64,000 nucleotides of DNA from a virus (Duplodnaviria; Caudoviricetes): IMG/VR virus record IMGVR_UViG_3300021124_000001. One strand, written 5' to 3'. Positions 7,147 to 48,798 of the stretch are shown here, in pieces (position 1 is the stretch's first letter; the number at the start of each line of letters is the position of its first letter). The notes below the pieces were generated by a model. The model was not told the DNA's origin, ran no database searches, and saw only the letters and a list, made by a program, of their open reading frames with translations. The translations under genes were made by a program, and so were the position numbers.

Positions 7147-7584
7147 ATGAAATATGTATATATTACGGCCGAGTTTAATAAAAAAATGTGTGAGATTTTT
7201 GAAGTTGATTATACGCCGACAGATACAACAAGATTTTTACTAAACAAAACCGAATCCATAATGCCTGTTAACATTGGTATTGATATTGGTGTATTTGGTA
7301 AAGACCCATGGAACAAAGGTAAAAATACTGGACCATTATCAGAATCACACAGAAAATCATTATCATTGGCGGCAAAAAATTATAAGAGAACACCAGAGCA
7401 TCAAGAAAATAATAGAATCGCAAGGTCAGATTCTTGGTCAGTAACTAATCCAAAAGGTGAAACATTTACTATAAAAAGTATGAATCATTTTTGTAAATGT
7501 AATCAATTAAATGCAGGACATATGACCTTGGTATCTCAAGGTAAAAGAAAACAACATAAAGGATGGACTTGTTCCAAAATATAA
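7147..7584 (+). CDS. Homing-endonuclease-derived DNA-binding protein with no recognisable nuclease domain
   Basis: PWNKG and SESHRKSLS NUMOD3-like motifs, C-terminal HTH-like KQHKGWTC; no GIY-YIG or HNH. Confidence 0.7.
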   Translation: MKYVYITAEFNKKMCEIFEVDYTPTDTTRFLLNKTESIMPVNIGIDIGVFGKDPWNKGKNTGPLSESHRKSLSLAAKNYKRTPEHQENNRIARSDSWSVTNPKGETFTIKSMNHFCKCNQLNAGHMTLVSQGKRKQHKGWTCSKI

Positions 7585-7781
7585 TGAACGAACGAATTAA
7601 AGAACTTGCTAAACAAGCAACTGTTCATGGCGATACTGAGCATCACCTGGACATACCGTTATGGTACTTGGAGCAGTTCGCCAAGTTGATTGTGAAAGAA
7701 TGTACCAATATTGTGTTACACTATACTGATGTTGATGAAGGTGTAGCAGTGGCCAAGAAACATTTCGGAGTTGAAGAATGA
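7584..7781 (+). CDS. MNERI...KFAELIV...HFGVEE family member 1
   Basis: All three framework blocks present. Confidence 0.8.
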   Translation: MNERIKELAKQATVHGDTEHHLDIPLWYLEQFAKLIVKECTNIVLHYTDVDEGVAVAKKHFGVEE

Positions 7782-8071
7782 AAACATCAGATATTAAAAA
7801 AGGTATGCGTGTCCGTCTTGCCAATGGTTGGTACGGTACTATGATGGATAATATGCGAGGTACTACCCGGCTTGTAGAGGTAGAAGGCCATTACACTGAA
7901 ACCGGGTCGGTATATTCACATGATATTATTGTGGCTCAAACACCTACAGGCTGGGAAGCCGTTGTGCATACTGCAAAAGAATTGCAGTGCAAAGAAATGA
8001 ATGAAGCGTTTTTTGGTGGTGGTGAAGAAGACCTACCATTTAAAAATGGTCTAGAATATATGTCAAACTAA
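7778..8071 (+). CDS. Hypothetical protein, possibly SH3-like
   Basis: Starts within the GGAGTTGAAGAATGA junction. Confidence 0.6.
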   Translation: MKTSDIKKGMRVRLANGWYGTMMDNMRGTTRLVEVEGHYTETGSVYSHDIIVAQTPTGWEAVVHTAKELQCKEMNEAFFGGGEEDLPFKNGLEYMSN

Positions 8072-8093
8072 GTATTGAATAAAGGAATATATT

Positions 8094-8636
8094 ATGCCAA
8101 ACTGGTGCTCTAATGTTGTGGTTATCTCTCACGTTGAACCATCCAAACTGGATGTTATTCGTGATGCTGTTAAGGTAGCGGCCGAAGCCTCTACTGGTGA
8201 ACATTTTTTCAATACTCTGGTGCCACGACCAGTAAATGAAGAAGAAAATTGGTATGAATGGAACGTGACCAATTGGGGTTGTAAATGGGATGTAGAGCCA
8301 CAAATTACCGAAGATACTGGTGATTCTATTACTTTGACCTTTGATACCGCATGGGCACCACCAATTCAATTCTATAATGAGATGGTCGAGCGTGATTATG
8401 AGGTTCGGGCATTCTATGATGAATCTGGTATGGCATTCGCTGGCATTTATGATAATGGCAATGACGATGATTATGAATATGGCAGTATGGACTCCAGTGA
8501 GATTGTAGATAATCTACCTCAAGAATTGGATGAAATGTTTGCTATCTCTGAGCAAAAGGCCGATTGGGAATCTGAAAACGAAGAACCTGATGTGGATGAA
8601 GCACAGGAATGGAACGATTTTGATCCAGAGTGTTGA
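8094..8636 (+). CDS. DUF1281/YubB ferredoxin-like protein
   Basis: MPNWCSN, WYEWNVTNWGCKWD and FDTAWAPP motifs. Confidence 0.8.
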   Translation: MPNWCSNVVVISHVEPSKLDVIRDAVKVAAEASTGEHFFNTLVPRPVNEEENWYEWNVTNWGCKWDVEPQITEDTGDSITLTFDTAWAPPIQFYNEMVERDYEVRAFYDESGMAFAGIYDNGNDDDYEYGSMDSSEIVDNLPQELDEMFAISEQKADWESENEEPDVDEAQEWNDFDPEC

Positions 8637-8646
8637 AAGGAAATAA

Positions 8647-9225
8647 ATGTTTGTCTTTGATGTTGAAACACTTGGTAAGGAATCTAGTGCAGTGATATTA
8701 TCCATGGCGGCCGTATACTTTGACCCGAGGGAAAAACCATCACCAAAAGATATGCGAGACACCGCATTTTTTGCCAAATTCAATGTCAATGACCAAATTG
8801 CAAGGCTTGGTCGCACCATGACCAGGTCATCCATATCATGGTGGGGTAAACAATGTGACATTGTAAAAAACAAATCATTTAAACCAAGCGCCGATGATAT
8901 TATCATTGATGATGGTGTAGAAGCCATGAGACAATGGTCAAAACAATTTCCAATGCACGACAAATGTTGGGTGTGGGCACGTGGCAACCTCGACCAATTG
9001 GTGCTTGATTCGATTGAAGAAAAACTAGGCATTGAACCTGTGTTTTTCTTTAATCGTTGGCGTGATGTGCGTACCGCATTGGACCTATTGAATGGGTCTG
9101 TGACTGGTTATGTGGATGTGGATTATCCTGGTTTCAATCCTGCACATCATATACAAAAACATGACCCAATTGATGATTGCATTTTTGACGCCATGCAGTT
9201 ACTATACGGAAAGAATGTAGAATGA
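8647..9225 (+). CDS. DEDDh 3'-5' exonuclease (DexA/Rv2179c-like)
   Basis: FDVETLG, WARGNLD, RDVRT and HDPIDDC motifs. Confidence 0.8.
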   Translation: MFVFDVETLGKESSAVILSMAAVYFDPREKPSPKDMRDTAFFAKFNVNDQIARLGRTMTRSSISWWGKQCDIVKNKSFKPSADDIIIDDGVEAMRQWSKQFPMHDKCWVWARGNLDQLVLDSIEEKLGIEPVFFFNRWRDVRTALDLLNGSVTGYVDVDYPGFNPAHHIQKHDPIDDCIFDAMQLLYGKNVE

Positions 9226-9443
9226 ACGAACGAATTGAACAAATTATTGAACAGGCATATTGCGATTTACATAAACAGGATCCAAATAGATTTTTTGGTG
9301 AAAGAACTATTGCTAAAAAAGTAGCCGAGTTGATTGTCCAAGATTGTGCCAATTTTGTGCGTGAAACATATGACCACGAGGCGGCAGAATCTATCGCATG
9401 GACAATGGAGATTAATTATGGTTTACACGGAGATTATGCATGA
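9222..9443 (+). CDS. MNERI family member 2
   Basis: MNERIEQ...KVAELIVQDC. Confidence 0.75.
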   Translation: MNERIEQIIEQAYCDLHKQDPNRFFGERTIAKKVAELIVQDCANFVRETYDHEAAESIAWTMEINYGLHGDYA

Positions 9444-9602
9444 AAACAATTTTTGATAAAGAGTATGATTCGGAATCATTGTGTGATTTGAGCCGAGATG
9501 TCCATGAGGCATTCAACAATGATTTTAATCCAACAGTAGCCGACATACCAAAAGACGAGTATGGCTTCCATGAAGGCCGGTTCATTGTCACAATAAAATG
9601 GG

Positions 9603-9664
9603 TGTTGTAAATTAACAACAAGCATACCAAAAGTCCTTGACGGACCGTCCAGATGTGCTATAAT
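9603..9664 (+). promoter_or_regulatory. Operator-associated promoter
   Basis: TGTTG-N8-CAACA, 16 bp, TTGACG-16-TATAAT. Confidence 0.85.
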
Positions 9665-9692
9665 TGCCACTTATTCGATTGATTAGGACACT

Positions 9693-9941
9693 ATGAGAAC
9701 CAAGCAAATTGTTCAAGGGCTTAAAAATAGCCAGCGTATACGTGCCATTGTGAATGGTGTTGGATTTTATACAACCGTACAAGATGCCCTGGCTGGTCCA
9801 TTTACTACGCAAACCTCGGCAGTTAATGTTGTATTGCATGAGATTGGTTCAAATAAATTAACTGGTTTTGGTCGAACCGTTAAAGTTTATAATAGCTATA
9901 TGGAAGCTGTTAATTTCAACATTCAAATTGATTTGGTTTAA
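9693..9941 (+). CDS. Hypothetical protein
   Basis: AGGA RBS after the promoter. Confidence 0.6.
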   Translation: MRTKQIVQGLKNSQRIRAIVNGVGFYTTVQDALAGPFTTQTSAVNVVLHEIGSNKLTGFGRTVKVYNSYMEAVNFNIQIDLV

Positions 9942-9951
9942 GGAGATAATC

Positions 9952-10404
9952 ATGGGTTTAGATATGTACTTGTCGGCACGTAAATATGTTTCTGATTTTG
10001 GTTTTAAACCAGAAGATACTAAACTAAATGCATCGATTAAAGAATCATTGGGTTTTGGTCCTAATGAATTTGGCCACATTTATGTTGAATTAGAAGTGGC
10101 ATATTGGCGTAAAGCAAACCAGATTCACGCATGGTTTGTGAATAATGTCCAAGATGGTGAAGACGATTGTGGAAATTATTATGTTTCCCGCGAACAAATT
10201 AGTGAATTGGTTAATCTGTGTTCGGAAGCCATTGATAATAAAGACTCCGAATTATTGGAACCAAAAAGTGGTTTCTTTTTTGGTTCGACCGATGTGGATG
10301 AATACTACTGGGACGAATTGAAACGCACCAAAATCGTCCTCAATCAAATTTTGAATGACAAACGACTGGAAGATTGTTCCTTCCAATATCATGCGTCCTG
10401 GTAA
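9952..10404 (+). CDS. Conserved phage protein (MGLDMY...YWRKANQIH...GFFFGST...YHASW type)
   Basis: AAGGAG RBS; recognisable widespread phage hypothetical. Confidence 0.75.
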   Translation: MGLDMYLSARKYVSDFGFKPEDTKLNASIKESLGFGPNEFGHIYVELEVAYWRKANQIHAWFVNNVQDGEDDCGNYYVSREQISELVNLCSEAIDNKDSELLEPKSGFFFGSTDVDEYYWDELKRTKIVLNQILNDKRLEDCSFQYHASW

Positions 10405-10426
10405 TGTTGCATAATAATGATTATAA

Positions 10427-10499
10427 TATAAATAGGTGTGTATCGCGTCCTGGCAGGGACCATACACTCTAGCCATCGAAACAATAATCAAGGACTATT
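10427..10499 (+). promoter_or_regulatory. Late promoter plus two-hairpin leader, copy 2
   Basis: TATAAATA; GUGUAU-CGC-GUCC...GGAC-C-AUACAC-UCUA. Confidence 0.8.
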
Positions 10500-10910
10500 A
10501 TGACCAGCACTAATATGTATATACCCCAGTCGGAATGGGATGCAATGTCCCAAGCATTATCTACCATATTCGATGTAGATTATGTACCAAGTAACACCGA
10601 ACCTTATATTGTAACCCCATTATATTCTAATAATTCTGGACATTTCAATCTAGGCATAAAAAGAACGGCCGAACAAAAAAAAGCTCAAAGTACTAGACAA
10701 ATAGGAATGAGATATTCCCATTTACGCAATGAAAAAATTGGATTTGCAAATTCTAAAAATTGGTTAATCACTGATCCTATCGGTATCACATATAGAGTTT
10801 TTAATTTAAGGCAATTTTGTCGAGAAAAAAACTTAAATCAATCTAGTATGACTATGGTAGCCAAAGGCAAATTTAAACAACACAAGGGTTGGACCTGTCA
10901 GAAAATTTGA
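10500..10910 (+). CDS. Homing-endonuclease-derived DNA-binding protein with no recognisable nuclease domain
   Basis: C-terminus paralogous to 7147..7584 (KQHKGWTCxKI); N-terminal LSTIFDVDYVP module. Confidence 0.7.
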   Translation: MTSTNMYIPQSEWDAMSQALSTIFDVDYVPSNTEPYIVTPLYSNNSGHFNLGIKRTAEQKKAQSTRQIGMRYSHLRNEKIGFANSKNWLITDPIGITYRVFNLRQFCREKNLNQSSMTMVAKGKFKQHKGWTCQKI

Positions 10911-10911
10911 T

Positions 10912-10973
10912 TGTTGTTTTTAAGCAACACCGTCCCGGATTGTCCTTGACTTAGGTGCCGGCCGTGTTACAAT
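10912..10973 (+). promoter_or_regulatory. Operator-associated promoter
   Basis: TGTTG-N8-CAACA, 16 bp, TTGACT-16-TACAAT. Confidence 0.8.
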
Positions 10974-11005
10974 GGACTCTTACTTTGATTGATGAAGGAA
11001 TTTAA

Positions 11006-11869
11006 ATGTCTGGTATTTTTATGGTTGACGGTAAGTATGCGGCTAATATCAACGGCAAGATTGTAAAACGTGCTAATCGCCGTGCATTGGAGCGTATGTT
11101 AAAAGTAACTGATGCCGTTGTTGCACCCACTGAGTCCAAATTCTCTATTAACCAGCGTTTTGGTTTCGTCCGTGATATGGTTCAAATGCTTGCAAAAGGC
11201 GACCAAGCGTCCGTGGTTGTATCGGGACCTGGTGGTCTCGGTAAGTCACACACCGTATCAGCCGCTTTGACCGATGCCGGCTTCACTGATCTGTCCGTGC
11301 TTGACGAATTGGCTGATGGTGCCGTTGTGCCTGATAAATCTTTCCGTGTTGTTAAAGGTTATTCTACACCAAAAGGTTTATATCGTGTTTTGTTTGAGAA
11401 TCGTAATTCGGTTGTTGTATTTGATGACTGTGATTCGGTGCTCAAAGATCCAGTATCTCTTAACCTATTGAAAGCGGCTCTAGATTCATATTCTCGCCGT
11501 ATTATCTCTTGGCGTGCCGATACTCGTGATGAAGAATTGCCTAATGTGTTTGAATTTAAAGGCCGTGTTGTCTTTATCTCTAACCTGTCGTCATCTTCAT
11601 TGGATCAAGCCATTATCTCACGTTCACTAGCCGTTGACTTGTCTATGACTGCCAAACAAAAGGTTGAACGTATGCGATTCCTGCTTGACCAAAAAGACTT
11701 TATGCCTGAGTATGACAAACAACACAAGGTCGATGCAATGGACCTTATTGCTGAGTTATGCGATAATGTGAAAGAGTTGTCTTTGCGTACACTGATTCAG
11801 GTAACAAAGATTCGTAAATCTGCCGGTGCAAACTGGAAAGATTTGGCTGAATATGCTATTGTTGGTTGA
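11006..11869 (+). CDS. AAA+ ATPase
   Basis: Walker A GPGGLGKS, Walker B VVFDDCD, sensor FISN, arginine finger ISRS. Confidence 0.85.
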   Translation: MSGIFMVDGKYAANINGKIVKRANRRALERMLKVTDAVVAPTESKFSINQRFGFVRDMVQMLAKGDQASVVVSGPGGLGKSHTVSAALTDAGFTDLSVLDELADGAVVPDKSFRVVKGYSTPKGLYRVLFENRNSVVVFDDCDSVLKDPVSLNLLKAALDSYSRRIISWRADTRDEELPNVFEFKGRVVFISNLSSSSLDQAIISRSLAVDLSMTAKQKVERMRFLLDQKDFMPEYDKQHKVDAMDLIAELCDNVKELSLRTLIQVTKIRKSAGANWKDLAEYAIVG

Positions 11870-11887
11870 TTTTTTAAAGGATTTATT

Positions 11888-12094
11888 ATGTTTGAACAAA
11901 CTGTAATGCAAAAAATTGGACATTTATTGAAAGAAGGCGAAACTGCTGAATTTCATAATGGTACATTGTTTCTCAATTCAGGCCGACCAACGGCCAATGA
12001 TGTTTATATTGAATTGTGTAACATTTATCGTAAACGATTTATAAATTTCAATATTGTTACTGAAGGTGAATATGCGTTTGACTTTACTGCGTGA
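11888..12094 (+). CDS. Hypothetical protein
   Basis: AAGGA RBS. Confidence 0.6.
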   Translation: MFEQTVMQKIGHLLKEGETAEFHNGTLFLNSGRPTANDVYIELCNIYRKRFINFNIVTEGEYAFDFTA

Positions 12095-13368: not shown

Positions 13369-13371
13369 AGA

Positions 13372-24008: not shown

Positions 24009-24271
24009 TGCTTTCTATCTTTCACTATTGGTCGGCCAAAGAACGATTGGCTGAACACGAAAAGACCATCATGATGCTTGGTGGTGAATCTGAATGCCAA
24101 CCAATGATTCTTGCACAGCGGGATTTCATAAAAATGGAATTGGAATACTATCGCAAACCAGCAAAAATTTGGTCGATAATTTTATGCGTACTTCCAGTTA
24201 TTTTTATTTTTCTTGCACCATTTGGATATGGTGTAATAAGTAACATTGTGATGAATTGCTGCATCAAGTAA
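24008..24271 (+). CDS. Membrane protein whose 3' end overlaps the antisense endonuclease
   Basis: TAATG coupling; C-terminal hydrophobic segment. Confidence 0.55.
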
Positions 24272-24778
24272 ACTTCCAAAAATAATGCCATTCGGATCAA
24301 TAACACCTTTTGCATTTGGATTTTTTGATGCCGTCAATCCATAACAAGGATTATTTACACCAGAAGTCCTAATCGATTGTAAGAGTTTTCTTTGAGTATT
24401 ATTTTCCCAGTGTGATTTTACAATTTTTTTAAGTTTAATTCTCACATCATTTCTACGGCATGGATTTTTGTCACCATATAATTTATTTTTTTCGGCAACA
24501 ACAATACCAGTTCCGCCATCACCCCCATCAGTACGATTTCTAAGTATACCAGTTTTTTTATCTTTTCTTCCCCACCAGCGGATATATCTGCGTTCAAGAG
24601 CAAAAGCACCAATTTCGGTAAGATTACCTTCCATAATAACGATTTTGGATTTATCTTTTGGTGGATGTATTACATCATTTTTTGTGTGTTTCCATGCTCT
24701 ATCTTCTTTACCTTTACCAATGTAATAAGGTGAACCGTTTTTACGGAGATAGGCATAGATGTAATAAATACTTGACAT
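24182..24778 (-). CDS. Free-standing GIY-YIG homing endonuclease
   Basis: YIYAY...PYYIGKG...R...E...[10 protein letters not shown]; antisense to the operon. Confidence 0.85.
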
Positions 24779-24855
24779 GTGCTGTGTCCTTATGTTAGAA
24801 TTTGACATAGAGTAGGTGGGAATTCCCAGTTCCGTGACCTACACCCTTATTTATA
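24779..24855 (-). promoter_or_regulatory. Late promoter plus two-hairpin leader, copy 3
   Basis: TATAAATA; GUAGGU-CAC-GGAA...UUCC-C-ACCUAC; CUAUGUC/GACACAG over the RBS. Confidence 0.8.
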
Positions 24856-28611: not shown

Positions 28612-29247
28612 ATGTTTTTGGTCAACAAATACACTGAAAGATATAATTCTATTGTGCATAAAGCCAAAAATAGAAAGTTGGTCGAGGGTGTTTACTATGA
28701 GAAACACCACATTCTACCAAAATCTATGGGTGGCAAAAACAACAAGTGCAATTTAGTGAATTTAACACCAAAAGAACATTATGTCGTGCATCACCTTTTA
28801 ACAAAAATGTGTGAAGGTGATAATTCTAGAAAAATGAATTATGCTTTTTGGAAATTAAACATACGTTATAAAGATGAAAAAAGAACTAATATAAATTTTT
28901 CAACATTTGAAAAAATACGTGAAAAACAAAAAGAAAATATGTCAAAAACCATGACTGGTAGATTTGTCTCAGAAAAAGCCAGAGAATCTGTTAGAAATTC
29001 CAATAGACTAAGGGTTGGAGATAAACACCCCTTATTTGGTAAAAAAAGACCAAACCATGTTATTGAAGCCAGCAGAAAAGCAAACTTGGGTAATAAGTAT
29101 TGTTTAGGTAGAAAAGTTAGTGAAGAAACTAGAAAAAAAATGTCCGAATCCCAAAAAAATGTAGAAAAATTTGATTGTGGTATATGTGGTCGGAAAATTT
29201 CAGGAAAAGGTAATTTCACCCAACATACTAGGTCACATAAAATATAA
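28612..29247 (+). CDS. HNH homing endonuclease (Mob-like) with NUMOD3 repeats and Zn finger
   Basis: EKHHILPKSMGG..NLVNLTPKEHYVVHHLL; SEETRKKMS; CGICG. Confidence 0.88.
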   Translation: MFLVNKYTERYNSIVHKAKNRKLVEGVYYEKHHILPKSMGGKNNKCNLVNLTPKEHYVVHHLLTKMCEGDNSRKMNYAFWKLNIRYKDEKRTNINFSTFEKIREKQKENMSKTMTGRFVSEKARESVRNSNRLRVGDKHPLFGKKRPNHVIEASRKANLGNKYCLGRKVSEETRKKMSESQKNVEKFDCGICGRKISGKGNFTQHTRSHKI

Positions 29248-37549: not shown

Positions 37550-37677
37550 AAGTCAAAAAGTTAGTTCAAAAATTAAACCGGGCCGAGTTACAACATAACT
37601 TGGAAAAGGCTAAAAAGTTTTGGATGAAGTTATTGAAGAAGTCGCTTAAAGGTAAGCACACCGAATCGGTGCGCTAA
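37546..37677 (+). CDS. Basic microprotein (43 aa)
   Basis: GAGG RBS, ATGA coupling; MKVKKLVQKLNRAELQ... Confidence 0.5.
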   Translation: MKVKKLVQKLNRAELQHNLEKAKKFWMKLLKKSLKGKHTESVR

Positions 37678-37681
37678 TAAT

Positions 37682-38005
37682 GATAGTAAACTTGGTATAA
37701 GAAAAGTGTTCTGGACGTGGGTTCGACTCCCACCAGGTCCACCAAAGTATATTAGAGTCCGTAAATACCCTTCAGTGGGCTCAAGGAACGGTTTAGAAGA
37801 TGTTGCAATACATCACATAGTATACTTTAATGGGCCTGCATTGGTTTCGACAGGGTAAAGAGTAAGATATTCAGGCTATCCGTCAGAGTTGACGTAAACA
37901 CTAAATCAAAATAAATGCAAACGATGAAAAGTTCCGCATTGCTGCCTAATTAAAGGTTGCTAGGGTTTGCTCGTAGGTTTTCCTAGTAACAGAATAAGCC
38001 TACTA
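37682..38005 (+). ncRNA. ssrA: Circularly permuted (two-piece) tmRNA
   Basis: T-arm GTGGG-TTCGACT-CCCAC plus CAGGTCC-A-CCA (ends 37744) precedes the 5' acceptor strand GGGCCTG (37832) with a G3-U70 pair; tag ORF 37917-37949 ANDEKFRIAA*; boundaries approximate. Confidence 0.92.
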
Positions 38006-38030
38006 CTATGTTTAACTTAAAGGAGTTTTA

Positions 38031-39193: not shown

Positions 39194-39401
39194 AGACTTT
39201 ACTACAATTTGTGTTACTCTAATCATCACATTGTGTTCGATTGTGGCCGCATATACGATTTATAACATCAATGATCGTAACAATATGGCAAAAAACATTG
39301 AATCTGCTATTCAACGAGGTATTGATCCTATCTCGGTTAAATGTGCATATGAAACGAATGCTAATGCCGTGTGCATTGCATATTCAATGGGTAAAAAATA
39401 A
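39186..39401 (+). CDS. Small membrane protein
   Basis: N-terminal TM segment. Confidence 0.6.
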   Translation: MNKDFTTICVTLIITLCSIVAAYTIYNINDRNNMAKNIESAIQRGIDPISVKCAYETNANAVCIAYSMGKK

Positions 39402-39625
39402 TGCCTACTAAAGATGAAATCCGTGAGTTCTCTTTGAAGATTGAGGAGATTGCCGATCTGTATAATGTTCATTGTATGGAAGCAATCGTCCAGTATTGTG
39501 AAGAATCGGGTATCGAGGTAGAAGTTGCCGCAACCTTGATTTCTTCACACCTCAAAGCACGTATCAAAGAAGAAGCTCAATCTGTTAATCTGATTAAAAA
39601 GTCGAGCCGGTTACCTATTGTATGA
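39401..39625 (+). CDS. gp33: Late transcription coactivator gp33
   Basis: FSLKIEE...[13 protein letters not shown]....LI...LK..I..EA; synteny with gp59 and gp32. Confidence 0.85.
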
Positions 39626-40298
39626 TATAATATTCATCCGGTTTTCTTTTTAATTTGGAAGAAATATTGGACTTTGTACAATTCATAAATTCGGCCGCTG
39701 TTGTTACTGATTCAAATAATCCAAAAGGTGTCATTATTCTTTTTCTCTTTTTCGGTATAGGTTTGCCTTTTTTCGAATTTGATAAATTCTGTTTATGGTG
39801 TTCTGAAAAAATCATCCCTTTTCTACCGTTTGAAATATTAGTTTTATGTTCCGAACTTTTTGGTCCTAACATTTTTTTGATAGAGTTCTCCGTGTGTTTA
39901 AAACCTAAATTGAAACCTTTCATTCCCTTATTCCACGGAGATTTGTTATAGTGGATACTATTCATACCTGAAATTTTATTTAAGGTTTCTTGTGTATGTT
40001 TATAATTCTCTACACCATCACCTCCATCGGTTTTATTTCTTAATATTCCTGTGCCTATGTCAATTCTACCATACCATCTTATCATTCGGCGTTCCAAAGC
40101 TAGTGCTCCAACTTCAGTTAAATTGCATTCAACAATTATGACTCGTGATTTATCTTTTGGTGGCTTAATTTCTTTTTTAGATTTTAACCAAGCTCGTGTT
40201 TTTTGACCTTTTCCAAAATAATATGGTGTATTATCTGGACGTAGATATGCATAAACATAAGATCCGGGTGGTGTGTTGGTTTTGGAATAAATATCCAT
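39615..40298 (-). CDS. Free-standing GIY-YIG homing endonuclease with NUMOD3 repeats
   Basis: YVYAY...PYYFGKG...[10 protein letters not shown]; antisense between gp33 and gp59. Confidence 0.85.
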
Positions 40299-40364
40299 GC
40301 TGACATTCCTTTACAATGTTAGAGTGGGTGCAAGCGGGAACTTGGCGACCCACACTTATTTATA
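40299..40364 (-). promoter_or_regulatory. Late promoter plus two-hairpin leader, copy 4
   Basis: TATAAATA; GUGGGU-CGC-CAAG...CUUG-C-ACCCAC; CUAACAUU/AAUGUCAG over the RBS. Confidence 0.8.
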
Positions 40365-42478: not shown

Positions 42479-43950
42479 GTCTGTCTGGTCAGACTCTTAA
42501 AAATGTTCTTCAGTGTCGGATCATCCGTACGAACTGTTACGGAACTGTCCATACTGATCGCAGGAGCAGAAGAACCACCAGATGCATTCACAGTCTTAGA
42601 ATTATCAATCGTGACGATTTTGGCTGTATCCTGGTCAAGATTCATACTAATATTTTGACTGATTGCCGACTGCACACGAGTTCCTGTAGATGCTGGTGCT
42701 GGAGGCATCGGTGCGGCTGTAGTTGGGATAGAATATTGTTCAGCCGACATGGTACCTCGACCGGCACCAGCAGTTGATGGCGTAACACCGACAGGTAAAG
42801 GTGTTGCTTTTGTTGCAGTAACCGTGGGCATGTTACCAGAATTGTATAAGTCTGAAGCCTCGTTCAATAATTCTGGTGGAGGTTGATTACCTTTACTATC
42901 CGCAAATATAAATCTTCCATTTTTCTCCTCACCCTTTTTGGTGTAACCTTTGGAATTCAAGTATTTTTCAATCGCTGATTGTTTTTTTCTAATCGCAGAC
43001 TTTAATTTTTCCTGCTTCTGTTCATATTCAGGATCAGAAGAACCTGGCATTTCTGATAGTTGATCTCGATTTTCGGAGTTCTGTATAGATTCAGTAATTG
43101 CTCTGGCTTCTGGTCCACCAAGTTCTTCACTCGAATCTTGTGCGGCACCCATTGCCTTGCCAACGCCAAATTTTATAGCTTCGGCAATCAATACACCTAA
43201 TGCTACACCTCCAGCAAGTCTTTGTATGAATGGATTAGCTAACAAACTTTTAAGTAAACCAAAAGCCGCAAGTACACCCTCACCAAAAATTTCTTTTATT
43301 TTTCCAAAGAAGTCTAATACAGGTTTAAAAAAATCTTTAACTTTTGCTATAGAACCTTCAATAAAATCCATTATATCATCTAAAAATCCACCCTTTTTGA
43401 CTGGTGTTGCTGTCGTAGTTTTACTACCAACTCCAGTAAGTGCTTTAATCAATTCAGAATGCCATTTTTCACGTTGCTTCTCTCTATCAACATTCAAATT
43501 CTTATCAATTTCACTTTGTATCTTTAGTTCTTCTGAGTTTGTCTTAATCAAATTATAAATGCGAGCCATCACATCAGCAAGCCCGTCATTCTTCTTCATA
43601 CTTCTTTTATCACCCTCAGGTATTTTTGTAACTAGAGGGTTCACCTTCATACTTTCTAGGGCACTAGAACGAACTCTTGCACCAGTGAAGTATGCAATAT
43701 CTTCTTCTCTACGGCCAGTCATTTTACCAACAGCATAAGCACCTAGTCTTCCACCAAACATCTTGCCGATGTTCAATGGATCAAACTTTTCTTTCATACG
43801 TGTGAATTTTGCTGTAGTCTTATCTGAGATAGCAGACTTAATAGAACGACCAACGCCTTGACCAGACACGATTCTGTCAACCATTAATCTGCCAAGGCCT
43901 ACATTTTTCAGCCTTTGTGCACGTTGATATGTCATTTTATCGTTTGCCAT
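42475..43950 (-). CDS. Tape-measure-like (gp29-position) protein B
   Basis: Helical and amphipathic with a hydrophobic core; downstream of gp26/gp51. Confidence 0.6.
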   Translation of the reverse strand: MANDKMTYQRAQRLKNVGLGRLMVDRIVSGQGVGRSIKSAISDKTTAKFTRMKEKFDPLNIGKMFGGRLGAYAVGKMTGRREEDIAYFTGARVRSSALESMKVNPLVTKIPEGDKRSMKKNDGLADVMARIYNLIKTNSEELKIQSEIDKNLNVDREKQREKWHSELIKALTGVGSKTTTATPVKKGGFLDDIMDFIEGSIAKVKDFFKPVLDFFGKIKEIFGEGVLAAFGLLKSLLANPFIQRLAGGVALGVLIAEAIKFGVGKAMGAAQDSSEELGGPEARAITESIQNSENRDQLSEMPGSSDPEYEQKQEKLKSAIRKKQSAIEKYLNSKGYTKKGEEKNGRFIFADSKGNQPPPELLNEASDLYNSGNMPTVTATKATPLPVGVTPSTAGAGRGTMSAEQYSIPTTAAPMPPAPASTGTRVQSAISQNISMNLDQDTAKIVTIDNSKTVNASGGSSAPAISMDSSVTVRTDDPTLKNIFKSLTRQT

Positions 43951-43951
43951 T

Positions 43952-45376
43952 TTATCCGCCTATGATTGCTGGTCTCTCTGAAGGTGTTGGTGTTCTAATT
44001 GTTTGTGGTGATGAACCACCTGAAGATATGACTGTTGTTTTTGTATTATCTATTGCAACGTTGGTGCCTTTAGTGGATGATTTTAAATCTTTATTCTCAT
44101 TGGAAGATTTAATAAGATTTTCACCGGAATCTATTTTAACATTTGGTGATGATAGGAGTTTAGATTCTTTTTTACCTGATCCATAACCCTCTCTCTTTTG
44201 CATAGCATCTAATATTAATGTTCGCTGTTGTTCATTAAAATCACGCATTCTCATAGTCTTCAATTTTTCTTCAGGAAGACCAACAGCATCTCTGACAGCT
44301 TTCTGATAAGCAGGAGTATCATTAGCTTTTTCTTTTGCAGGTGCATATCTAGCGATTGCATCATCAATATTTAAATCTCTATAATTTTTACCTTCAAAAA
44401 TCAACTTAGCTTTGGCCGCACGACCAGCTTCATATGTTGGAAAAATTGCAAATCTTTCTTCAGGTGTTTGTGGTTTATTTTTTCCATGAGCGTACGGAAT
44501 TGCACCATTCGATAAAGCAAAATCGCCATATTCGATGTTACCTGGATTATTATTTCTCCAGTTCCAAACACCTTCTTTTTTGACTATTTCACCAGATTGC
44601 AATTCAACTATGTTGTAGCCCTTACCAACTTCAACTATTCTTTTTATTGCTGTTGCGGCCGCGGCACCAATAGCAACACCTGTAGCTACTTTAGCGGCTG
44701 TAGAAACGCCACCAGTAGAAACTGGAGGTTTTGTTGGACTAGCAGACACTGGTTTAGGTGCCGGTGCTTCCACCGGTTTTGCAGTTGCCGGTTTAGCTGT
44801 TGGTGTTTCTGTTGTTGCTGACTTTTGTGCAGGAGCTTCAGCTTTTTTAGCCTCAGGCTCCTTCTTCATGAACCTACCCTTCTCATCTCTAGGCGGTAAT
44901 TCTTTTTTAGGCTTTTGAGCCTTTACACCCTTTTTGGCATTCTCGATGGTGGCAATCAGTTCTTCTTGTCTTCTTTGTTCTTCTTCGAATAGTTCTTGTT
45001 CTTTATTTTTATCCAATTCAGAACGCAACTTACGATCTTCTATATCTTGCTTCATTACAGCATAGATTTTTGCACCGATGTTGGCCGCACTGTCACCTGT
45101 TCGTAGTTTAGGCTTGCTAACGGTGACAGCATCAACGTAAAAGTTGGCGTTTACATTACCAACTTTGTTGGCCATATTTGATTGTGGTGATACTTGCTTA
45201 GCCGTTTTCTTACGCTTTGACAAACCTTTTACTATATCTTCCACATTCATTGCAGTTTGTTTCACAATCATATCAACAATTTGCTTGTCAATAGCGGCTC
45301 GTTGGGCTTCCAATTCTTTACTATTTTGGCCTTTCAACTCACCGATTACTGATTCTAATTGTGACTTGTTGTTCAT
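43952..45376 (-). CDS. Tape-measure-like protein A with putative muramidase domain
   Basis: Coiled coil, PAK linker, RNNNPGNI...FAIF...G...YAP..END lysozyme-like motif. Confidence 0.65.
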   Translation of the reverse strand: MNNKSQLESVIGELKGQNSKELEAQRAAIDKQIVDMIVKQTAMNVEDIVKGLSKRKKTAKQVSPQSNMANKVGNVNANFYVDAVTVSKPKLRTGDSAANIGAKIYAVMKQDIEDRKLRSELDKNKEQELFEEEQRRQEELIATIENAKKGVKAQKPKKELPPRDEKGRFMKKEPEAKKAEAPAQKSATTETPTAKPATAKPVEAPAPKPVSASPTKPPVSTGGVSTAAKVATGVAIGAAAATAIKRIVEVGKGYNIVELQSGEIVKKEGVWNWRNNNPGNIEYGDFALSNGAIPYAHGKNKPQTPEERFAIFPTYEAGRAAKAKLIFEGKNYRDLNIDDAIARYAPAKEKANDTPAYQKAVRDAVGLPEEKLKTMRMRDFNEQQRTLILDAMQKREGYGSGKKESKLLSSPNVKIDSGENLIKSSNENKDLKSSTKGTNVAIDNTKTTVISSGGSSPQTIRTPTPSERPAIIGG

Positions 45377-45390
45377 CTACGTTTTTTTCT

Positions 45391-45458
45391 TATAAATAAT
45401 TGTGTATCGCCAGACTCTCACCTCCGCATACACTCTAACACGAAAGAACCGTATCAGC
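45391..45458 (+). promoter_or_regulatory. Late promoter plus two-hairpin leader, copy 5
   Basis: TATAAATA; GUGUAU-CGC...C-AUACAC; CUAACACG/CGUAUCAG. Confidence 0.8.
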
Positions 45459-46061
45459 ATGACTATTTATCATATAATATATAAAACTATCCACAAAAAC
45501 GGAAACTACTATTATGGTCGCCATTCCACCGATAACTTAAATGATGGATATTTGGGTTCTGGTAAATGGGTGAAAAGCATAAAAAATAAAAAAGAACTTA
45601 CCCGAGAAATAGTGGAATATGCGGATTCCATAGAGAAATTAAAACACTTAGAGGAAAAATACCTAGATGAACACTACGGTAAACCAAATTGTATGAATTG
45701 GTCTAAAGGATCACACGGTTTCAAAAAAGGTGATCCTGCAACCAAGCAAATACCTAGAAGGGTGCAGTTGAAGTTGGTAAAAGAAGGTAAACACCACCTA
45801 TTAAGTGGTGACGTACAGAGACAACAGTGGAAAAAATATAAAGAATTGGGAATAAATCCTATAACAAATATTCAAAATGTTACCGAAAGAGCAAATAGAC
45901 TAATCAAAGAAGGTAAACACAATTTTCAAAACACATCAAGTCGTGAAAAAGTGGTTTTACATCAAAAAACTGAAAGAGTGTGTCCACATTGTGGTAAAAA
46001 TGGAAAAGGCTCAATCATGTTTAGACACCATTTTGAAAAATGCAAATTCAAATCATCTTGA
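45459..46061 (+). CDS. Seg-like GIY-YIG homing endonuclease with C-terminal Zn finger
   Basis: IYKT..NGNYYYGRHST....DGYLGSG; CPHCG...RHHF..C. Confidence 0.85.
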   Translation: MTIYHIIYKTIHKNGNYYYGRHSTDNLNDGYLGSGKWVKSIKNKKELTREIVEYADSIEKLKHLEEKYLDEHYGKPNCMNWSKGSHGFKKGDPATKQIPRRVQLKLVKEGKHHLLSGDVQRQQWKKYKELGINPITNIQNVTERANRLIKEGKHNFQNTSSREKVVLHQKTERVCPHCGKNGKGSIMFRHHFEKCKFKSS

Positions 46062-46241
46062 ATTTTGTCGCTCTTTAATCTTGGCATTTTCTTCTTCAAT
46101 ATATTGAGCAAGCATACTAACGTAAATTTCACGCTCCCATGGCATCATATTTTCTAGCTCCGTCAAACTATACTTGTGATGCTGAATCAATGCAAAGTTG
46201 GTTGTATAATAGTTCCTTAATGTATCATGACGGAAGATTAC
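46053..46241 (-). CDS. gp51: gp51-like baseplate hub/tail assembly chaperone segment, with no own start over its conserved N-terminal part
   Basis: Manual translation VIFRHDTLRNYYTTNFALIQHHKYSLTELENMMPWEREIYV..., in the -1 frame of gp26. Confidence 0.85.
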   Translation of the reverse strand, partial: VIFRHDTLRNYYTTNFALIQHHKYSLTELENMMPWEREIYVSMLAQYIEEENAKIKERQNSR

Positions 46242-46960
46242 CCGAAAAAATTTTCGAGACCCTCCACCTCAATCGTATGGTGGAAACCACACTTACCACA
46301 GTCCATCTCAATTGTTTTATTTAATTTAGGTAAATTGTCAAAAAATTCTTCAATCTTACTAAATTGCTCAGTGTTCAATGATTCTACAAACTCAATTAAT
46401 TCTTCTCTTGCAACCTCATTCGCATAATAGAATTGTTCACCATCATAAATGTTAACGATACTACTGATAATCATTTCAAACGCCATATCGGTTGCAGTCT
46501 CAATATTCTTTGATGCATCCAACACAGAAAACTTTGGATAGGCCAACTTGATACTGATTCTGTCTGTTAGTTGAATCTCATCTTTAATATCATTGTGGTC
46601 AACTTTAATATCTAACAAATTAAACTTAACATCCATCATATTGCCACAAGCCTTATCGTCTACGATATTCTCACAGCGATATTTGTTTTCAACAACTTCA
46701 CCGACCGATCTCGCTCTTAACTGGATGAAATAGTATTCAACGTCCACAATAGGAAGAGAATCAATGTCAACATTCTCTGTCAAGGTACAGTTATGTAAAA
46801 CTTGTTTGATGTTCTTTTCCATAGTCTCTTTATCGTCAGATTCCATGGCCATCATTAGGTTACGTTGCTCTTTCACCAGAAAAGGTCTAAAGCGAATATG
46901 CTTCTTAGACAGCGGTAAAGTCAATTCATAGATCGGCGCATCAATTTTTGGTAAAGCCAT
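46238..46960 (-). CDS. gp26: Baseplate hub assembly chaperone gp26
   Basis: MALPKI..P.Y, FRPFLVKE, LRARSVGE, CGKCG, GLENFF. Confidence 0.9.
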   Translation of the reverse strand: MALPKIDAPIYELTLPLSKKHIRFRPFLVKEQRNLMMAMESDDKETMEKNIKQVLHNCTLTENVDIDSLPIVDVEYYFIQLRARSVGEVVENKYRCENIVDDKACGNMMDVKFNLLDIKVDHNDIKDEIQLTDRISIKLAYPKFSVLDASKNIETATDMAFEMIISSIVNIYDGEQFYYANEVAREELIEFVESLNTEQFSKIEEFFDNLPKLNKTIEMDCGKCGFHHTIEVEGLENFFG

Positions 46961-46979
46961 TATATCTCCTTCAAATCAA

Positions 46980-47651
46980 TTAGTAATAAGACTCAAGTTT
47001 TGGTCCTTCTTGCAATATTACATTCTTCTCGTTAACAATGTTATTATCTGTAAATCCGGTTAGGCCGCCAGTTGAATTAAGAACTTGTGTAATTCCATAC
47101 TGTAGTGCACTGTCACCAAATTTCTGTATAGAGTTGTTTTGCCAGTATCTGTAAGCGAAGACAACAGTTAATTTGTGGTGTCCATCATTAGACCAATCCA
47201 AGTCCAATTGGTTGACTGAAACTGGAAACGCATCGATCAGGTTGATGGAGTATGTTAATTTGTTATCAACACCATACTGATTGACTGTCAAGGTAGAGAT
47301 GTAATCATTTCTATAGTTGAAATCAAAAGACATTGTTGGGTTGATGTATTCCATCCATGCATCAAAGAAAATCTTCTCAGACATATCATCCGAAACAATG
47401 AATGTCATCTCAGACTCATTGTAGTTCGATTGGTAAGCATGTTTTTCGATTGGGTTTGAACCGATTTTCTGGTCTGCTGTTGCAAAGGTTCTGCTAGGTA
47501 ACTGAGCAGACTCACAGCGTAATGTCAAATTTCTACTTGTTGACAAATAGTACAACATTGGCAGCGGAGCAGGAATAGTAACATCAAACCTATTTGGTCT
47601 TGCAATATCGGTCTTAAACGAACCAAGAAAATCTGTAATACTTGATGGCAT
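46980..47651 (-). CDS. gp54: Tail tube initiator (gp54, gp19 fold)
   Basis: ARPNRFDV, CESAQLPS, FDAWM, AFPVSV..LDLDWS and FAYRYW motifs. Confidence 0.75.
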   Translation of the reverse strand: MPSSITDFLGSFKTDIARPNRFDVTIPAPLPMLYYLSTSRNLTLRCESAQLPSRTFATADQKIGSNPIEKHAYQSNYNESEMTFIVSDDMSEKIFFDAWMEYINPTMSFDFNYRNDYISTLTVNQYGVDNKLTYSINLIDAFPVSVNQLDLDWSNDGHHKLTVVFAYRYWQNNSIQKFGDSALQYGITQVLNSTGGLTGFTDNNIVNEKNVILQEGPKLESYY

Positions 47652-47653
47652 TT

Positions 47654-48277
47654 TTATTCTTCTGAGTTAAAGTGTTTCATGTGATCTTTCCACTCCAATA
47701 CCGAATCTCTCCACACTTTTTGTGGTTTTGCACCTCTAAATTGCTGTATTGGTAACATTGTTGCCACATCCCACTCATTCGGTTGGATTGTCAACATTCT
47801 GGAACGAACATGATTAAACAGGTATCGTTTCAGACAAGGCCTAAACTCCGCATACTTCTTGGATGCTTCCAGGATGTCGTAGGATATTCTCATACGTCTA
47901 ATGTCGTTCTCTGCTGTCAACTGTGCATATTTCATCAGTTTGGACAAGAACGCAATACGGAACTTGACTGGTAAATAGTGCAGATTCAGACCCATGAAAC
48001 CATCATTATATCTTTCCAAAATCAAAACCATTGGGAATCTATCCCAATATGGCATGTCTGCCTTGGTTTTAGGATCATAATAGAAACAATACATCATTCC
48101 AATACGAAACTGGGATGTCTGTCTAAATGTTTCTTTATTGATTGTAGATGGTATTGTTGACGGCCTTTTGATCTCGTCAATCTTTTCCTGCAACCAAGCC
48201 ACAGCATCACGAGACATAGTTTTATGTCCTGCCGCCGCTTTTTGTTCTGCTAGTGAGGTGAGTTTGGATGTGGTCAT
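47654..48277 (-). CDS. gp2: DNA end protector gp2
   Basis: YDPKTK..PYWDRFP, GLNLHYLP and CLKRYL motifs. Confidence 0.9.
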   Translation of the reverse strand: MTTSKLTSLAEQKAAAGHKTMSRDAVAWLQEKIDEIKRPSTIPSTINKETFRQTSQFRIGMMYCFYYDPKTKADMPYWDRFPMVLILERYNDGFMGLNLHYLPVKFRIAFLSKLMKYAQLTAENDIRRMRISYDILEASKKYAEFRPCLKRYLFNHVRSRMLTIQPNEWDVATMLPIQQFRGAKPQKVWRDSVLEWKDHMKHFNSEE

Positions 48278-48282
48278 TTCTT

Positions 48283-48348
48283 TATAAATAAGTGTGTATC
48301 GCCGGTGGTCAGACCGCATACACCCTAACACGAAAGAACCGTATCAGT
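48283..48348 (+). promoter_or_regulatory. Late promoter plus two-hairpin leader, copy 6
   Basis: TATAAATA; GUGUAU-CGC-CGGU...ACCG-C-AUACAC; 3' half near-identical to copy 5. Confidence 0.8.
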
Positions 48349-48798
48349 ATGATTATTTATAAGCTATCTCAAAAAGAATTTGATTCTTTAAATTTATCAC
48401 TTTCCAAAGCATTCGATGTCGCATACCAAGAAATGAACGTTGGTGACCAAATTTTTGAAACTTCATCAGTTCCATCCAGTAACTGCATATTGAGAGGCGA
48501 ATCTAGTCCTAGGTGGCGTAAAAAACATTCAGAAGAATCTAAGAAAAAAATGGCGGCCGCAAGATTAGGCAAAAAAGCCACCGATGAAACAAGAAAGAAG
48601 ATGAGTTTAGCTCAATTGGGTAAAAAACAAAGGCCTGAATCTATAGTAAAAATGTTGGAAACTAGAAAAGGTAAACCGGCAGGCATGAAAGGTAAAAAGA
48701 AAATAACTACAGTTTGTCCACACTGTGGTCTAATAGGTGCTAGAAGCTCACTGAAAAGGTATCATTTCGACAACTGCAAATCTTTAAGAAATTCCTAG
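48349..48798 (+). CDS. NUMOD3/Zn-finger protein with no recognisable nuclease domain
   Basis: HSEESKKKM, TDETRKKMS, CPHCG...RYHFDNC; N-terminal LSKAFDVAY module. Confidence 0.72.
   Translation: MIIYKLSQKEFDSLNLSLSKAFDVAYQEMNVGDQIFETSSVPSSNCILRGESSPRWRKKHSEESKKKMAAARLGKKATDETRKKMSLAQLGKKQRPESIVKMLETRKGKPAGMKGKKKITTVCPHCGLIGARSSLKRYHFDNCKSLRNS

What the first reader, a model, noticed from the sequence alone, without database searches (positions are those of the whole stretch)
7147..48798. Three nuclease-less homing-endonuclease derivatives share an unknown N-terminal module of about 30 aa
Seen: 7147 (YITAEFNKKMCEIFEVDYTP), 10500 (YIPQSEWDAMSQALSTIFDVDYVP) and 48349 (YKLSQKEFDSLNLSLSKAFDVAYQE) begin with a related helix plus F(D/E)VxY motif where GIY-YIG or HNH would be. 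NUMOD3-like repeats follow, then an HTH-like end or a Zn finger. 48349 shares its leader and Zn finger with the intact GIY-YIG at 45459, but its N-terminus with 7147 and 10500, showing domain swapping. All three are intact and keep the leader. Inference: not decayed pseudogenes but possibly adaptors that recruit a nuclease or recombinase in trans, site-blocking immunity proteins against rival endonucleases, or domesticated regulators.
Basis: partly seen in the sequence, partly recalled or inferred. Interest (0 to 1): 0.72.

Follow-up and report, generated by a model that had tools for sequence, protein, structure and literature searches.

The report
Nuclease-less homing-endonuclease relatives, new N-terminal module
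Three intact genes in an uncultured freshwater T4-like phage encode homing-endonuclease-type DNA-binding proteins whose cutting domain is replaced by a short conserved helix-plus-motif of unknown partner, a small selected family that shows how selfish nuclease genes can be turned into non-cutting DNA binders.

Summary
ORFs 7147-7584, 10500-10910 and 48349-48798 are intact. Each sits behind the late-promoter and hairpin leader that, within this window, precedes only homing-endonuclease-like genes. All three share a roughly 30-aa N-terminal module. Profile-profile P is 4.6e-10 (A-like vs B-like) and 2.5e-9 (B-like vs C-like); A vs C alone is weak (0.017).

At least 14 distinct members were found, all metagenomic, 123-176 aa, none with a nuclease. 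The module matches no GIY-YIG or HNH profile, PDB sequence or deposited phage.

AlphaFold2 models it as one confident amphipathic helix plus an ordered F-D-V-x-Y segment, then a disordered linker and homing-endonuclease DNA-binding beads (NUMOD3; I-HmuI-like HTH; or zinc finger).

dN/dS is 0.2-0.3. A and C keep their positions in diverged relatives. B-like genes occupy at least four different sites.

Best reading: selected, non-catalytic, site-specific DNA binders derived from homing endonucleases. The N-module is a protein-contact element, for self-association or for a shared partner. Which partner, and whether the role is repression, site blocking or recruitment of a nuclease in trans, is unresolved.

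This is a new variant of a known kind (compare CapR). The scan also noted A and B on this genome in another window.

The parts
7078..7146 (+). Leader of gene A: CATAAATA late-promoter-like box, hairpin (about 7084-7123), UCUAA, GGAG ribosome-binding site
7147..7584 (+). Gene A (P0001, 145 aa), a nuclease-less homing-endonuclease-like protein
   Evidence: PHROG 2081/314 match only to aa 47-142. dN/dS 0.22-0.26 against orthologues.
7147..7239 (+). N-module of A (aa 1-31: YVYITAEFNKKMCEIFEVDYTP...)
   Evidence: hhalign A-like vs B-like, P 4.6e-10; alignment
7432..7581 (+). C-terminal I-HmuI/NUMOD-like HTH domain of A (aa 96-145)
   Evidence: Pfam PF22083 at 14 bits, below its cut-off. PHROG 2081 E 2.7e-10. 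Thousands of homing-endonuclease relatives share this domain.
10427..10499 (+). Leader of gene B: TATAAATA, hairpin (about 10433-10471), UCUAG, AAGGA ribosome-binding site
10500..10910 (+). Gene B (P0002, 136 aa). It is absent at this site in relatives L016, L017 and L013.
   Evidence: Homology to L016 resumes at 10912, directly after the stop codon.
10500..10610 (+). N-module of B (aa 1-37). AlphaFold2 models a helix at aa 10-23 (pLDDT about 87), then the IFDVDYVP segment.
10755..10907 (+). C-terminal beta-beta-HTH-beta domain of B (aa 86-136)
   Evidence: AlphaFold2 pLDDT 90-93. Foldseek 1u3e I-HmuI E 4.3e-5 and 9kja AcrVA3 E 7e-3.
48283..48348 (+). Leader of gene C, nearly identical to the leader of the GIY-YIG gene at 45391-45458
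48349..48798 (+). Gene C (P0003, 149 aa), inserted on the opposite strand between the gp2 (DNA end protector) and gp4 (head closure) homologues
   Evidence: The same position in L014 holds a 58%-identical orthologue.
48349..48438 (+). N-module of C (aa 1-30). AlphaFold2 models a helix at aa 8-22 (pLDDT 93-96), then the FDVAYQE segment.
   Evidence: hhalign B-like vs C-like, P 2.5e-9
48490..48786 (+). NUMOD3 repeats (three helices) and C-terminal CPHC...HF..CK zinc finger of C
   Evidence: Pfam NUMOD3 E 2.8e-9; alignment with GIY-YIG relatives
45391..46061 (+). Intact GIY-YIG-type homing endonuclease gene (P0004) with the same leader and zinc finger as C. This is the comparison gene.
   Evidence: hhalign of its subfamily against I-TevI-like domains gives P 2.9e-7. 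Pfam's own GIY-YIG model does not reach it.

Best explanation
A, B and C belong to a small family of proteins derived from free-standing homing endonucleases. So far it is known only from metagenomes.

**Shown.**
- They keep the endonuclease gene cassette: a T4-type late promoter, a 5' hairpin, and a modular 'beads-on-a-string' DNA-binding part.
- In place of the N-terminal GIY-YIG or HNH domain they carry a roughly 30-residue module. It has a short Y-I-x stretch, a 14-15-residue amphipathic helix, and an ordered (F/L)-(D/E/N/G)-(V/I)-x-Y segment (usually followed by x-P), followed by a disordered linker.
- The module has no conserved set of catalytic residues and no detectable similarity to any nuclease.
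- The genes are under purifying selection.

**Inferred.**
- The proteins are made late in infection.
- They bind specific DNA sites through their C-terminal parts without cutting.
- The N-module is a protein-protein contact surface, either for self-association or for docking to one shared partner. It acts as the common 'effector' in the position the nuclease once held.
- The most likely outcome is occupancy of the ancestral homing-site-like sequences. That would repress transcription or block access there, as the domesticated endonuclease relative CapR does and as I-TevI does at its own operator.
- The cassettes still spread passively, by recombination or by riding on cuts made by the five intact endonucleases nearby.
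For: - **Family and architecture.** At least 14 distinct members of 123-176 aa were found, and none carries a nuclease. They came from three searches: a profile search of 1.84 billion representatives (best 150 of 4,538 inspected), an N-module-only search of longer proteins in 5.8 billion clusters, and IMG/VR.
- **One module, varied ends.** The N-module is combined with different DNA-binding ends.
- **Homology of the module.**
- **No nuclease signal.** Pfam, PHROGs, hhalign against three GIY-YIG subfamilies and one HNH set (P 0.16-0.69, while GIY-YIG controls among themselves give 3e-7 to 0.03), and a PDB sequence search were all negative.
- **Predicted structure.** A single confident helix plus an ordered motif, then a linker with pLDDT below 50, then the DNA-binding modules. 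Two independent AlphaFold2 models agree. The C-terminal domain matches I-HmuI.
- **Hydrophobic stripe.** Conserved hydrophobic positions fall at i, i+3, i+7 and i+10/11, with nothing in the module to bury them (alignment; inference).
- **Selection.** dN/dS is 0.20-0.28 over whole genes and 0.13-0.55 over the N-module.
- **Stable positions.** C lies between gp2 and gp4 in the one diverged relative whose flanks could be read (L014); A lies after the same 178-aa gene in several.
- **Late expression is plausible.** The window has TATAAATA boxes and a gp33 homologue. The late-promoter-plus-hairpin arrangement is the described one for T4 endonuclease genes (PMC2988022).
- **Precedents for non-cutting roles.** CapR (PMC8096241) and I-TevI autorepression (PMC2988022).
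Against: - No DNA target, partner or oligomeric state was tested. The functional part is inference.
- B-like genes sit at at least four different sites in related phages and keep the endonuclease-type leader. That pattern is what an active mobile element would show, and it fits a role in homing better than a fixed regulator.
- The region holding A and B is highly mosaic, so positional variation may instead reflect general recombination.
- Only the best 150 of 4,538 profile hits were listed, and three members were found only on re-scanning them. Fusions of the module to other domains could therefore have been missed.
- A 30-residue module gives profile comparisons little power, so a very degenerate GIY-YIG remnant cannot be excluded.
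- One 2026 paper reports double-strand DNA cleavage by AcrVA3, which has the same fold as the A/B C-terminal domain (PMC13001698). 'Non-catalytic' is therefore not proven.
Confidence: 0.5

Rival explanations
1. Two-component homing system. The N-module recruits a nuclease supplied in trans, for example the catalytic domain of one of the phage's intact GIY-YIG or HNH enzymes, or a recombination nuclease. The DNA-binding part then directs cutting to its own target, and the nuclease-less cassette still homes.
For: - The module sits exactly where the nuclease domain sits. It is the constant part, while the DNA-binding ends vary.
- B-like genes occupy at least four distinct sites in related phages, with a clean boundary at the stop codon of B.
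- The endonuclease-specific leader is retained in most members whose upstream DNA could be read, with compensatory stem changes; P0091 lacks it.
- Five intact endonuclease genes lie in the same 64 kb.
- Trans-homing of a defunct endonuclease gene is documented for mobE and I-TevIII (PMC2790892, abstract; PMC2988022).
Against: - No partner was identified, and no stand-alone nuclease domain was found in the window.
- A and C have stayed at fixed positions in relatives diverged to 50-60% protein identity, which looks like vertical inheritance.
- No known homing endonuclease works as a separate targeting subunit plus nuclease subunit (own knowledge).
Confidence: 0.22
2. Vestige. The N-module is what remains of a GIY-YIG domain after an internal deletion: strand 1 (the 'IY'), a helix and the F-x-F-x-I-x-E strand. 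It has no function of its own, and the genes are defunct selfish elements that persist by hitch-hiking.
For: - C shares its leader and first four codons (M-I/T-I-Y) with the intact GIY-YIG gene at 45459.
- BLASTP and HMMER extensions place the module opposite the 'LQ.AWNKYG..F.FEIIE' region of I-TevI-like enzymes.
- The closest full-length relatives of C are GIY-YIG enzymes.
Against: - Profile-profile comparison with three GIY-YIG subfamilies is not significant (P 0.16-0.66).
- The catalytic Arg, Glu and Asn are not conserved.
- The module is under purifying selection. In the B subfamily it is better conserved than the rest of the protein, at 54-60% against 36-40% identity.
- It has persisted through several subfamilies and domain rearrangements.
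Confidence: 0.12
3. Counter-defence or other host-directed factor. The homing-endonuclease DNA-binding fold has been recruited for an anti-defence role, as in AcrVA3 or AcrIIA15-like proteins, and the N-module contacts a host protein.
For: - The C-terminal domain of B matches AcrVA3 (9kja; Foldseek E 7e-3, TM 0.60 by target, 29% identity).
- AcrVA3 is itself I-HmuI-like (PMC13001698).
- A and B lie in a hyperplastic region of small accessory genes.
Against: - Late-promoter expression is poorly suited to countering host defences early in infection (inference).
- C lies among structural genes.
- The similarity concerns only the common DNA-binding fold. No defence-related family matched in Pfam or PHROGs; PADLOC was not searched.
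Confidence: 0.08
4. Clamp tether. The acidic-aromatic I-F-D-V-D-Y segment imitates the clamp-binding tails of T4-type polymerase and late-transcription proteins, and ties the DNA binder to the gp45 sliding clamp.
For: - The motif resembles the RB69 polymerase tail (SLFDMFDF, recalled from memory).
- It loosely resembles the polymerase tail of a related contig (...TTLDDFFN).
- It is followed by a flexible linker.
Against: - The motif is N-terminal and attached to a helix, not a free C-terminal tail.
- The phage's gp33 tail (...SSRLPIV) does not resemble it.
- No clamp gene was available to test. Short acidic-aromatic motifs arise easily by chance.
Confidence: 0.05

Closest known systems
Free-standing GIY-YIG (seg) and HNH (mob) homing endonucleases of T4-like phages; I-TevI, I-BmoI, I-HmuI
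   Same: - Intergenic, often opposite-strand insertion between conserved genes.
- T4-type late promoter plus RNA hairpin leader.
- C-terminal NUMOD3 repeats, an I-HmuI/I-TevI-type HTH or a zinc finger.
- Shuffling of DNA-binding modules.
   Different: - There is no nuclease domain. A 30-aa helix-plus-motif module stands in its place.
- The proteins are only 123-176 aa.
- A and C are held at fixed positions under purifying selection.
CapR of the Vibrio cholerae satellite PLE (domesticated T5orf172 endonuclease DNA-binding domain; PMC8096241, PMC10448857)
   Same: A homing-endonuclease DNA-binding module without a nuclease, acting (in CapR) as a sequence-specific repressor. It is a precedent for domestication and for domain exchange between endonuclease and non-endonuclease genes.
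   Different: - CapR uses a different zinc-finger domain, and no Pfam CapR match was seen here.
- It is encoded by a satellite, not the phage.
- It has no counterpart of the N-module or of the retained endonuclease leader.
Defunct I-TevIII of T4, mobilised in trans by MobE (PMC2790892)
   Same: A homing-endonuclease gene that cannot cut but still spreads because a neighbouring intact endonuclease cuts nearby.
   Different: I-TevIII in T4 is a deletion remnant that is not conserved as a protein family. The genes here are selected, form a family and carry a specific replacement module.
AcrVA3 (PDB 9kja; PMC13001698)
   Same: A small stand-alone phage protein with the I-HmuI-like DNA-binding fold. 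It is the second-best structural match to the C-terminal domain of B.
   Different: - It has no N-module and no NUMOD3 repeats.
- It is an anti-CRISPR with reported non-specific double-strand DNA cleavage.
- The similarity is limited to the common fold.

Membership tests
Homing endonuclease (GIY-YIG or HNH, free-standing, T4 seg/mob type) | N-terminal catalytic nuclease domain (GIY..YIG/Arg/Glu/Asn, or a His-Me finger) | tested here: not met
   - No Pfam or PHROG nuclease match over aa 1-45.
- hhalign against three GIY-YIG subfamilies and one HNH set gives P 0.16-0.69.
- No PDB sequence match.
- Only one Tyr is invariant.
Homing endonuclease (GIY-YIG or HNH, free-standing, T4 seg/mob type) | Modular C-terminal DNA-binding region (NUMOD3, HTH, zinc finger) | tested here: met
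   - Pfam NUMOD3 for C.
- PHROG 314, 655 and 2081 matches.
- Foldseek match to I-HmuI 1u3e, E 4.3e-5, for B.
- 4,538 relatives share the A/B end.
Homing endonuclease (GIY-YIG or HNH, free-standing, T4 seg/mob type) | Free-standing cassette with its own late promoter and hairpin, present or absent between related genomes | tested here: met
   - Leader.
- B is absent at its site in L016, L017 and L013.
- B-like genes lie at other sites.
- A and C are positionally conserved instead.
Homing endonuclease (GIY-YIG or HNH, free-standing, T4 seg/mob type) | Site-specific cleavage of the allele that lacks the gene | not testable with these tools
   Needs purified protein and the empty-site DNA.
CapR-type domesticated endonuclease DNA binders | CapR/DUF723/DUF4397 zinc-finger DNA-binding domain | tested here: not met
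   The Pfam scan at E up to 1 lists no such family for A, B or C. The zinc finger of C is the CPHC...HF..CK type of GIY-YIG enzymes.
CapR-type domesticated endonuclease DNA binders | Nuclease-less endonuclease-derived protein that binds a specific operator and represses | not testable with these tools
   The architecture fits. Binding and repression need experiments.
NUMOD3 (PF07460) | Score above Pfam's gathering cut-off | tested here: met
   C scores 37.2 bits against a cut-off of 20.4, with three stretches. A and B do not reach it and are only NUMOD3-like by the WNKG motif and predicted helices.
I-HmuI NUMOD-like domain (PF22083) | Sequence score above the cut-off, or fold match to I-HmuI | tested here: inconclusive
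   A scores 14 bits against a cut-off of 27, and B gives no Pfam hit. The AlphaFold2 model of B does match 1u3e at E 4.3e-5, probability 1.00.
AcrVA3-like anti-CRISPR | Fold match and anti-CRISPR activity | tested here: inconclusive
   Foldseek 9kja gives E 7e-3, TM 0.60 by target and 29% identity over 68 columns. The activity cannot be tested here.

The most novel reading that the evidence does not exclude
The N-module is a portable, non-enzymatic effector that has taken the nuclease's place in a still-mobile homing cassette. It recruits a nuclease or a recombination or replication factor in trans, which would make these genes the targeting subunits of a two-component homing system. No such arrangement has been described for homing endonucleases.
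Probability: 0.2. Interest if true: 0.8.

Novelty: new variant of a known kind. Interest (0 to 1): 0.52.

Why it matters
Homing endonuclease genes are usually pictured as cycling between invasion, decay and loss. This family instead lost the nuclease, gained a conserved replacement module, and kept both its expression cassette and its exchangeable DNA-binding ends. It stayed under selection in several related phages.

If the module is a docking or dimerisation element, it marks a route by which selfish nucleases become regulators or targeting factors inside the phage itself. If it recruits a nuclease in trans, it would be a new way of homing.

Either way it offers a compact, natural set of sequence-specific DNA binders with a common handle, and a clear set of experiments.

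Tried and rejected
- **GIY-YIG remnant.** BLASTP and HMMER extensions suggested alignment to the helix and third-strand region of GIY-YIG domains. hhalign with 4, 8 and 12 module sequences against three GIY-YIG subfamilies and one HNH set was never significant. The reading is kept only as a low-probability rival.
- **Known structure or family for the module.** The PDB sequence search gave only chance hits (Nup188, E 0.18). ESM Atlas features and structure neighbours were uninformative.
- **Cultured phages.** Megablast of both regions found nothing. tblastn with the modules alone gave E of 1 or more. Full-length hits cover only the DNA-binding parts.
- **Apparent N-terminal matches in tblastn.** The matches to Vibrio phage 1.122.A, Pseudomonas phage Y1-MI and phiAS5 MobE are low-scoring extensions into unrelated regions.
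- **A separate nuclease-only gene in the window.** HMM and phmmer scans found only full-length enzymes.
- **Whole-genome view.** No genome is held for the window, and the phage is not in IMG/VR.
- **Clamp-motif idea.** I could only read one polymerase tail from a related contig and the window's gp33 tail. Neither gives support.
- **Rfam.** It has no family for the leader hairpin.

Full report
**What is there**

The window is part of an uncultured T4-like phage.
- It has homologues of gp2, gp4, baseplate hub, gp59, gp32 and gp33.
- It has no megablast match among 50,697 deposited phage genomes.
- It occurs in several JGI, ENA and Logan metagenome assemblies.
- It carries a betaproteobacterial-type permuted tmRNA.

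- Family matches cover only the C-terminal two thirds. C has NUMOD3 above Pfam's cut-off and PHROG homing-endonuclease families. A and B match PHROG 2081/314 over aa 47-142.
- Nothing matches aa 1-45.

**The leader**

All three genes are preceded by the same unit, as are the GIY-YIG genes at 45459, 40298(-) and 24808(-). The unit is TATAAATA, a hairpin, UCUA(A/G), then a ribosome-binding site.
- The pattern occurs six times in the window against 0.86 expected, and only before these genes.
- The stem varies by compensatory changes between copies and relatives: GUGUAU/AUACAC, GUGGGU/ACCCAC, GUGGAU/AUCCAC, GUAGGU/ACCUAC and GCCCGC/GCGGGC.
- A late promoter combined with an RNA hairpin is the described arrangement for T4 endonuclease genes (PMC2988022).
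- The leaders of C and of the GIY-YIG gene at 45459 are nearly identical through the fourth codon.

**Is the N-terminal similarity real?**

- Within the window, each N-terminus finds the others as top hits among 1,382 six-frame ORFs. Pairwise E values are only 0.04-0.08, but a leave-one-out HMM reaches 7.8e-7. There is no fourth copy in the window.
- Relatives from large protein collections raise the family to at least 14 distinct members:

| Subfamily | Members |
|---|---|
| A-like | P0039, P0063, P0187, P0188, and an IMG/VR copy (L033) |
| B-like | P0087, P0150, P0091, P0151, P0132 |
| C-like | P0005, P0189 |

- Profile-profile comparison of subfamilies gives P 4.6e-10 (A vs B) and 2.5e-9 (B vs C). 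A vs C alone gives 0.017. Reversed-sequence controls give 0.03 or more.
- The module is therefore a genuine homologous unit, with the A-C link resting mainly on B.

**What the module is not**

- hhalign against three GIY-YIG subfamilies and an HNH set was never significant (P 0.16-0.69). The GIY-YIG subfamilies compared with each other give 3e-7 to 0.03.
- The PDB sequence search, the ESM Atlas and tblastn of the module against deposited phages gave nothing.
- Only one Tyr is invariant, and no set of catalytic residues is conserved.
- The suggestive BLAST and HMMER extensions into the 'LQ.AWNKYG..F.FEIIE' part of GIY-YIG domains remain unsupported. The power of any test on 30 residues is low.

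**What the module looks like**

Two AlphaFold2 models, of B and C, agree.
- One helix: B aa 10-23 with pLDDT about 87, and C aa 8-22 with pLDDT 93-96.
- An ordered, non-helical F-D-V-x-Y stretch.
- A linker with pLDDT below 50.
- NUMOD3-type helices.
- A beta-beta-HTH-beta domain in B, or a zinc finger in C.

The C-terminal domain of B matches I-HmuI (1u3e, E 4.3e-5) and AcrVA3 (9kja, E 7e-3). Conserved hydrophobic residues of the helix follow an i, i+3, i+7, i+10/11 stripe. In a module with no core of its own, that suggests a contact surface (inference).

**Selection and position**

- dN/dS is 0.20-0.28 for whole genes and 0.13-0.55 for the module. In the B subfamily the module is better conserved than the rest, at 54-60% against 36-40% identity.
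- C lies between gp2 and gp4 both here and in a relative whose flanking proteins are 54-68% identical.
- A-like genes always follow the same 178-aa gene.
- B is different. In L016/L017, homology to the window resumes one base after the stop codon of B, in front of a conserved promoter-like sequence and the AAA ATPase gene. L013 also has the ATPase gene without a B gene before it.
- B-like genes in other contigs sit before the GP88-family gene or between other small genes.
- The family therefore combines vertically kept members with members that have moved. The A/B region is very mosaic, so general recombination may be enough to explain the movement.

**Context**

The same 64 kb holds five intact endonuclease genes: GIY-YIG at 24182-24808(-), 39615-40298(-), 45459-46061(+) and 53820-54437(+), and an HNH gene at 28612-29247(+). 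No nuclease-only gene was found.

**Interpretation**

- *Shown:* these are selected, nuclease-less derivatives of homing endonucleases. They share a new N-terminal module, which is combined with several kinds of DNA-binding ends.
- *Inferred:* they are late-expressed, site-specific DNA binders. The module is a protein-contact element in the place of the former effector domain.
- I favour a non-catalytic occupancy or repressor role. CapR (PMC8096241) and I-TevI autorepression are the precedents.
- The rivals are a trans-recruited nuclease (two-component homing), a functionless GIY-YIG vestige, a counter-defence role suggested by the AcrVA3 fold match (PMC13001698), and a clamp tether. The evidence does not exclude any of them.

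**Limits**

- No whole genome was available.
- Only 150 of 4,538 profile hits were listed.
- Multimer prediction and all biochemistry are outside the tools.

Noticed in passing
window 37607-38014 (+): Phage-encoded permuted tmRNA of betaproteobacterial type (Rfam RF01850 at 125 bits; RF04321 at 134.7 bits). It hints at a betaproteobacterial host.
   Followed up: partly
window 24182-24808(-), 28612-29247(+), 39615-40298(-), 45459-46061(+), 53820-54437(+): Five apparently intact homing endonuclease genes (four GIY-YIG, one MobE-like HNH) lie in 64 kb. With A, B and C that makes eight endonuclease-like genes. Pfam's GIY-YIG model misses all four GIY-YIG domains.
   Followed up: partly
window 7078-7124, 10427-10472, 24795-24855(-), 40319-40364(-), 45391-45438, 48283-48328; also L010, L013-L016, L018, L031, L032: The leader specific to the endonuclease-like genes is TATAAATA followed directly by a hairpin and UCUA(A/G). 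The stem changes by compensatory substitutions, with five stem variants. The hairpin does not cover the ribosome-binding site, and no Rfam family matches. Its role (mRNA 5' end, regulation or recombination signal) is open.
   Followed up: partly
window 39401-39625 (+) and 39615-40298 (-): A gp33 homologue (co-activator of late transcription) is separated from gp59 by a GIY-YIG endonuclease gene on the other strand. The gp33 C-terminal tail (...SSRLPIV) is unlike the T4 tail as I recall it.
   Followed up: no
window 6546-7082 (+): A 178-aa gene always lies directly upstream of A-like genes (L013, L015, L020). It has no Pfam or PHROG match, a Lys/Ala/Pro-rich middle, and a C-terminal stretch reminiscent of AP2-like endonuclease-associated modules.
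   Followed up: no
window 7563-7781 and 9222-9443 (+): Small genes starting MNERI... belong to the repeated small-gene family that other readers of this genome noted. A and B are embedded in this mosaic early region.
   Followed up: no
window 10912-11005: A sigma-70-like promoter (TTGAC, 17-18 bases, TACAAT) in front of the AAA ATPase gene is conserved with L016/L017. It marks the exact right-hand boundary of the B cassette.
   Followed up: partly
P0091 (L028:1458-1988), P0151 (L032:185-688): Two family members carry the N-module followed by two tandem copies of the I-HmuI-like HTH domain and no NUMOD3 repeats. This shows repeat expansion of the DNA-binding end within the nuclease-less family.
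   Followed up: partly
model of B (aa 86-136) vs PDB 9kja: The anti-CRISPR AcrVA3 is a close structural match to this homing-endonuclease DNA-binding domain. AcrVA3 may itself be an endonuclease-derived module.
   Followed up: partly
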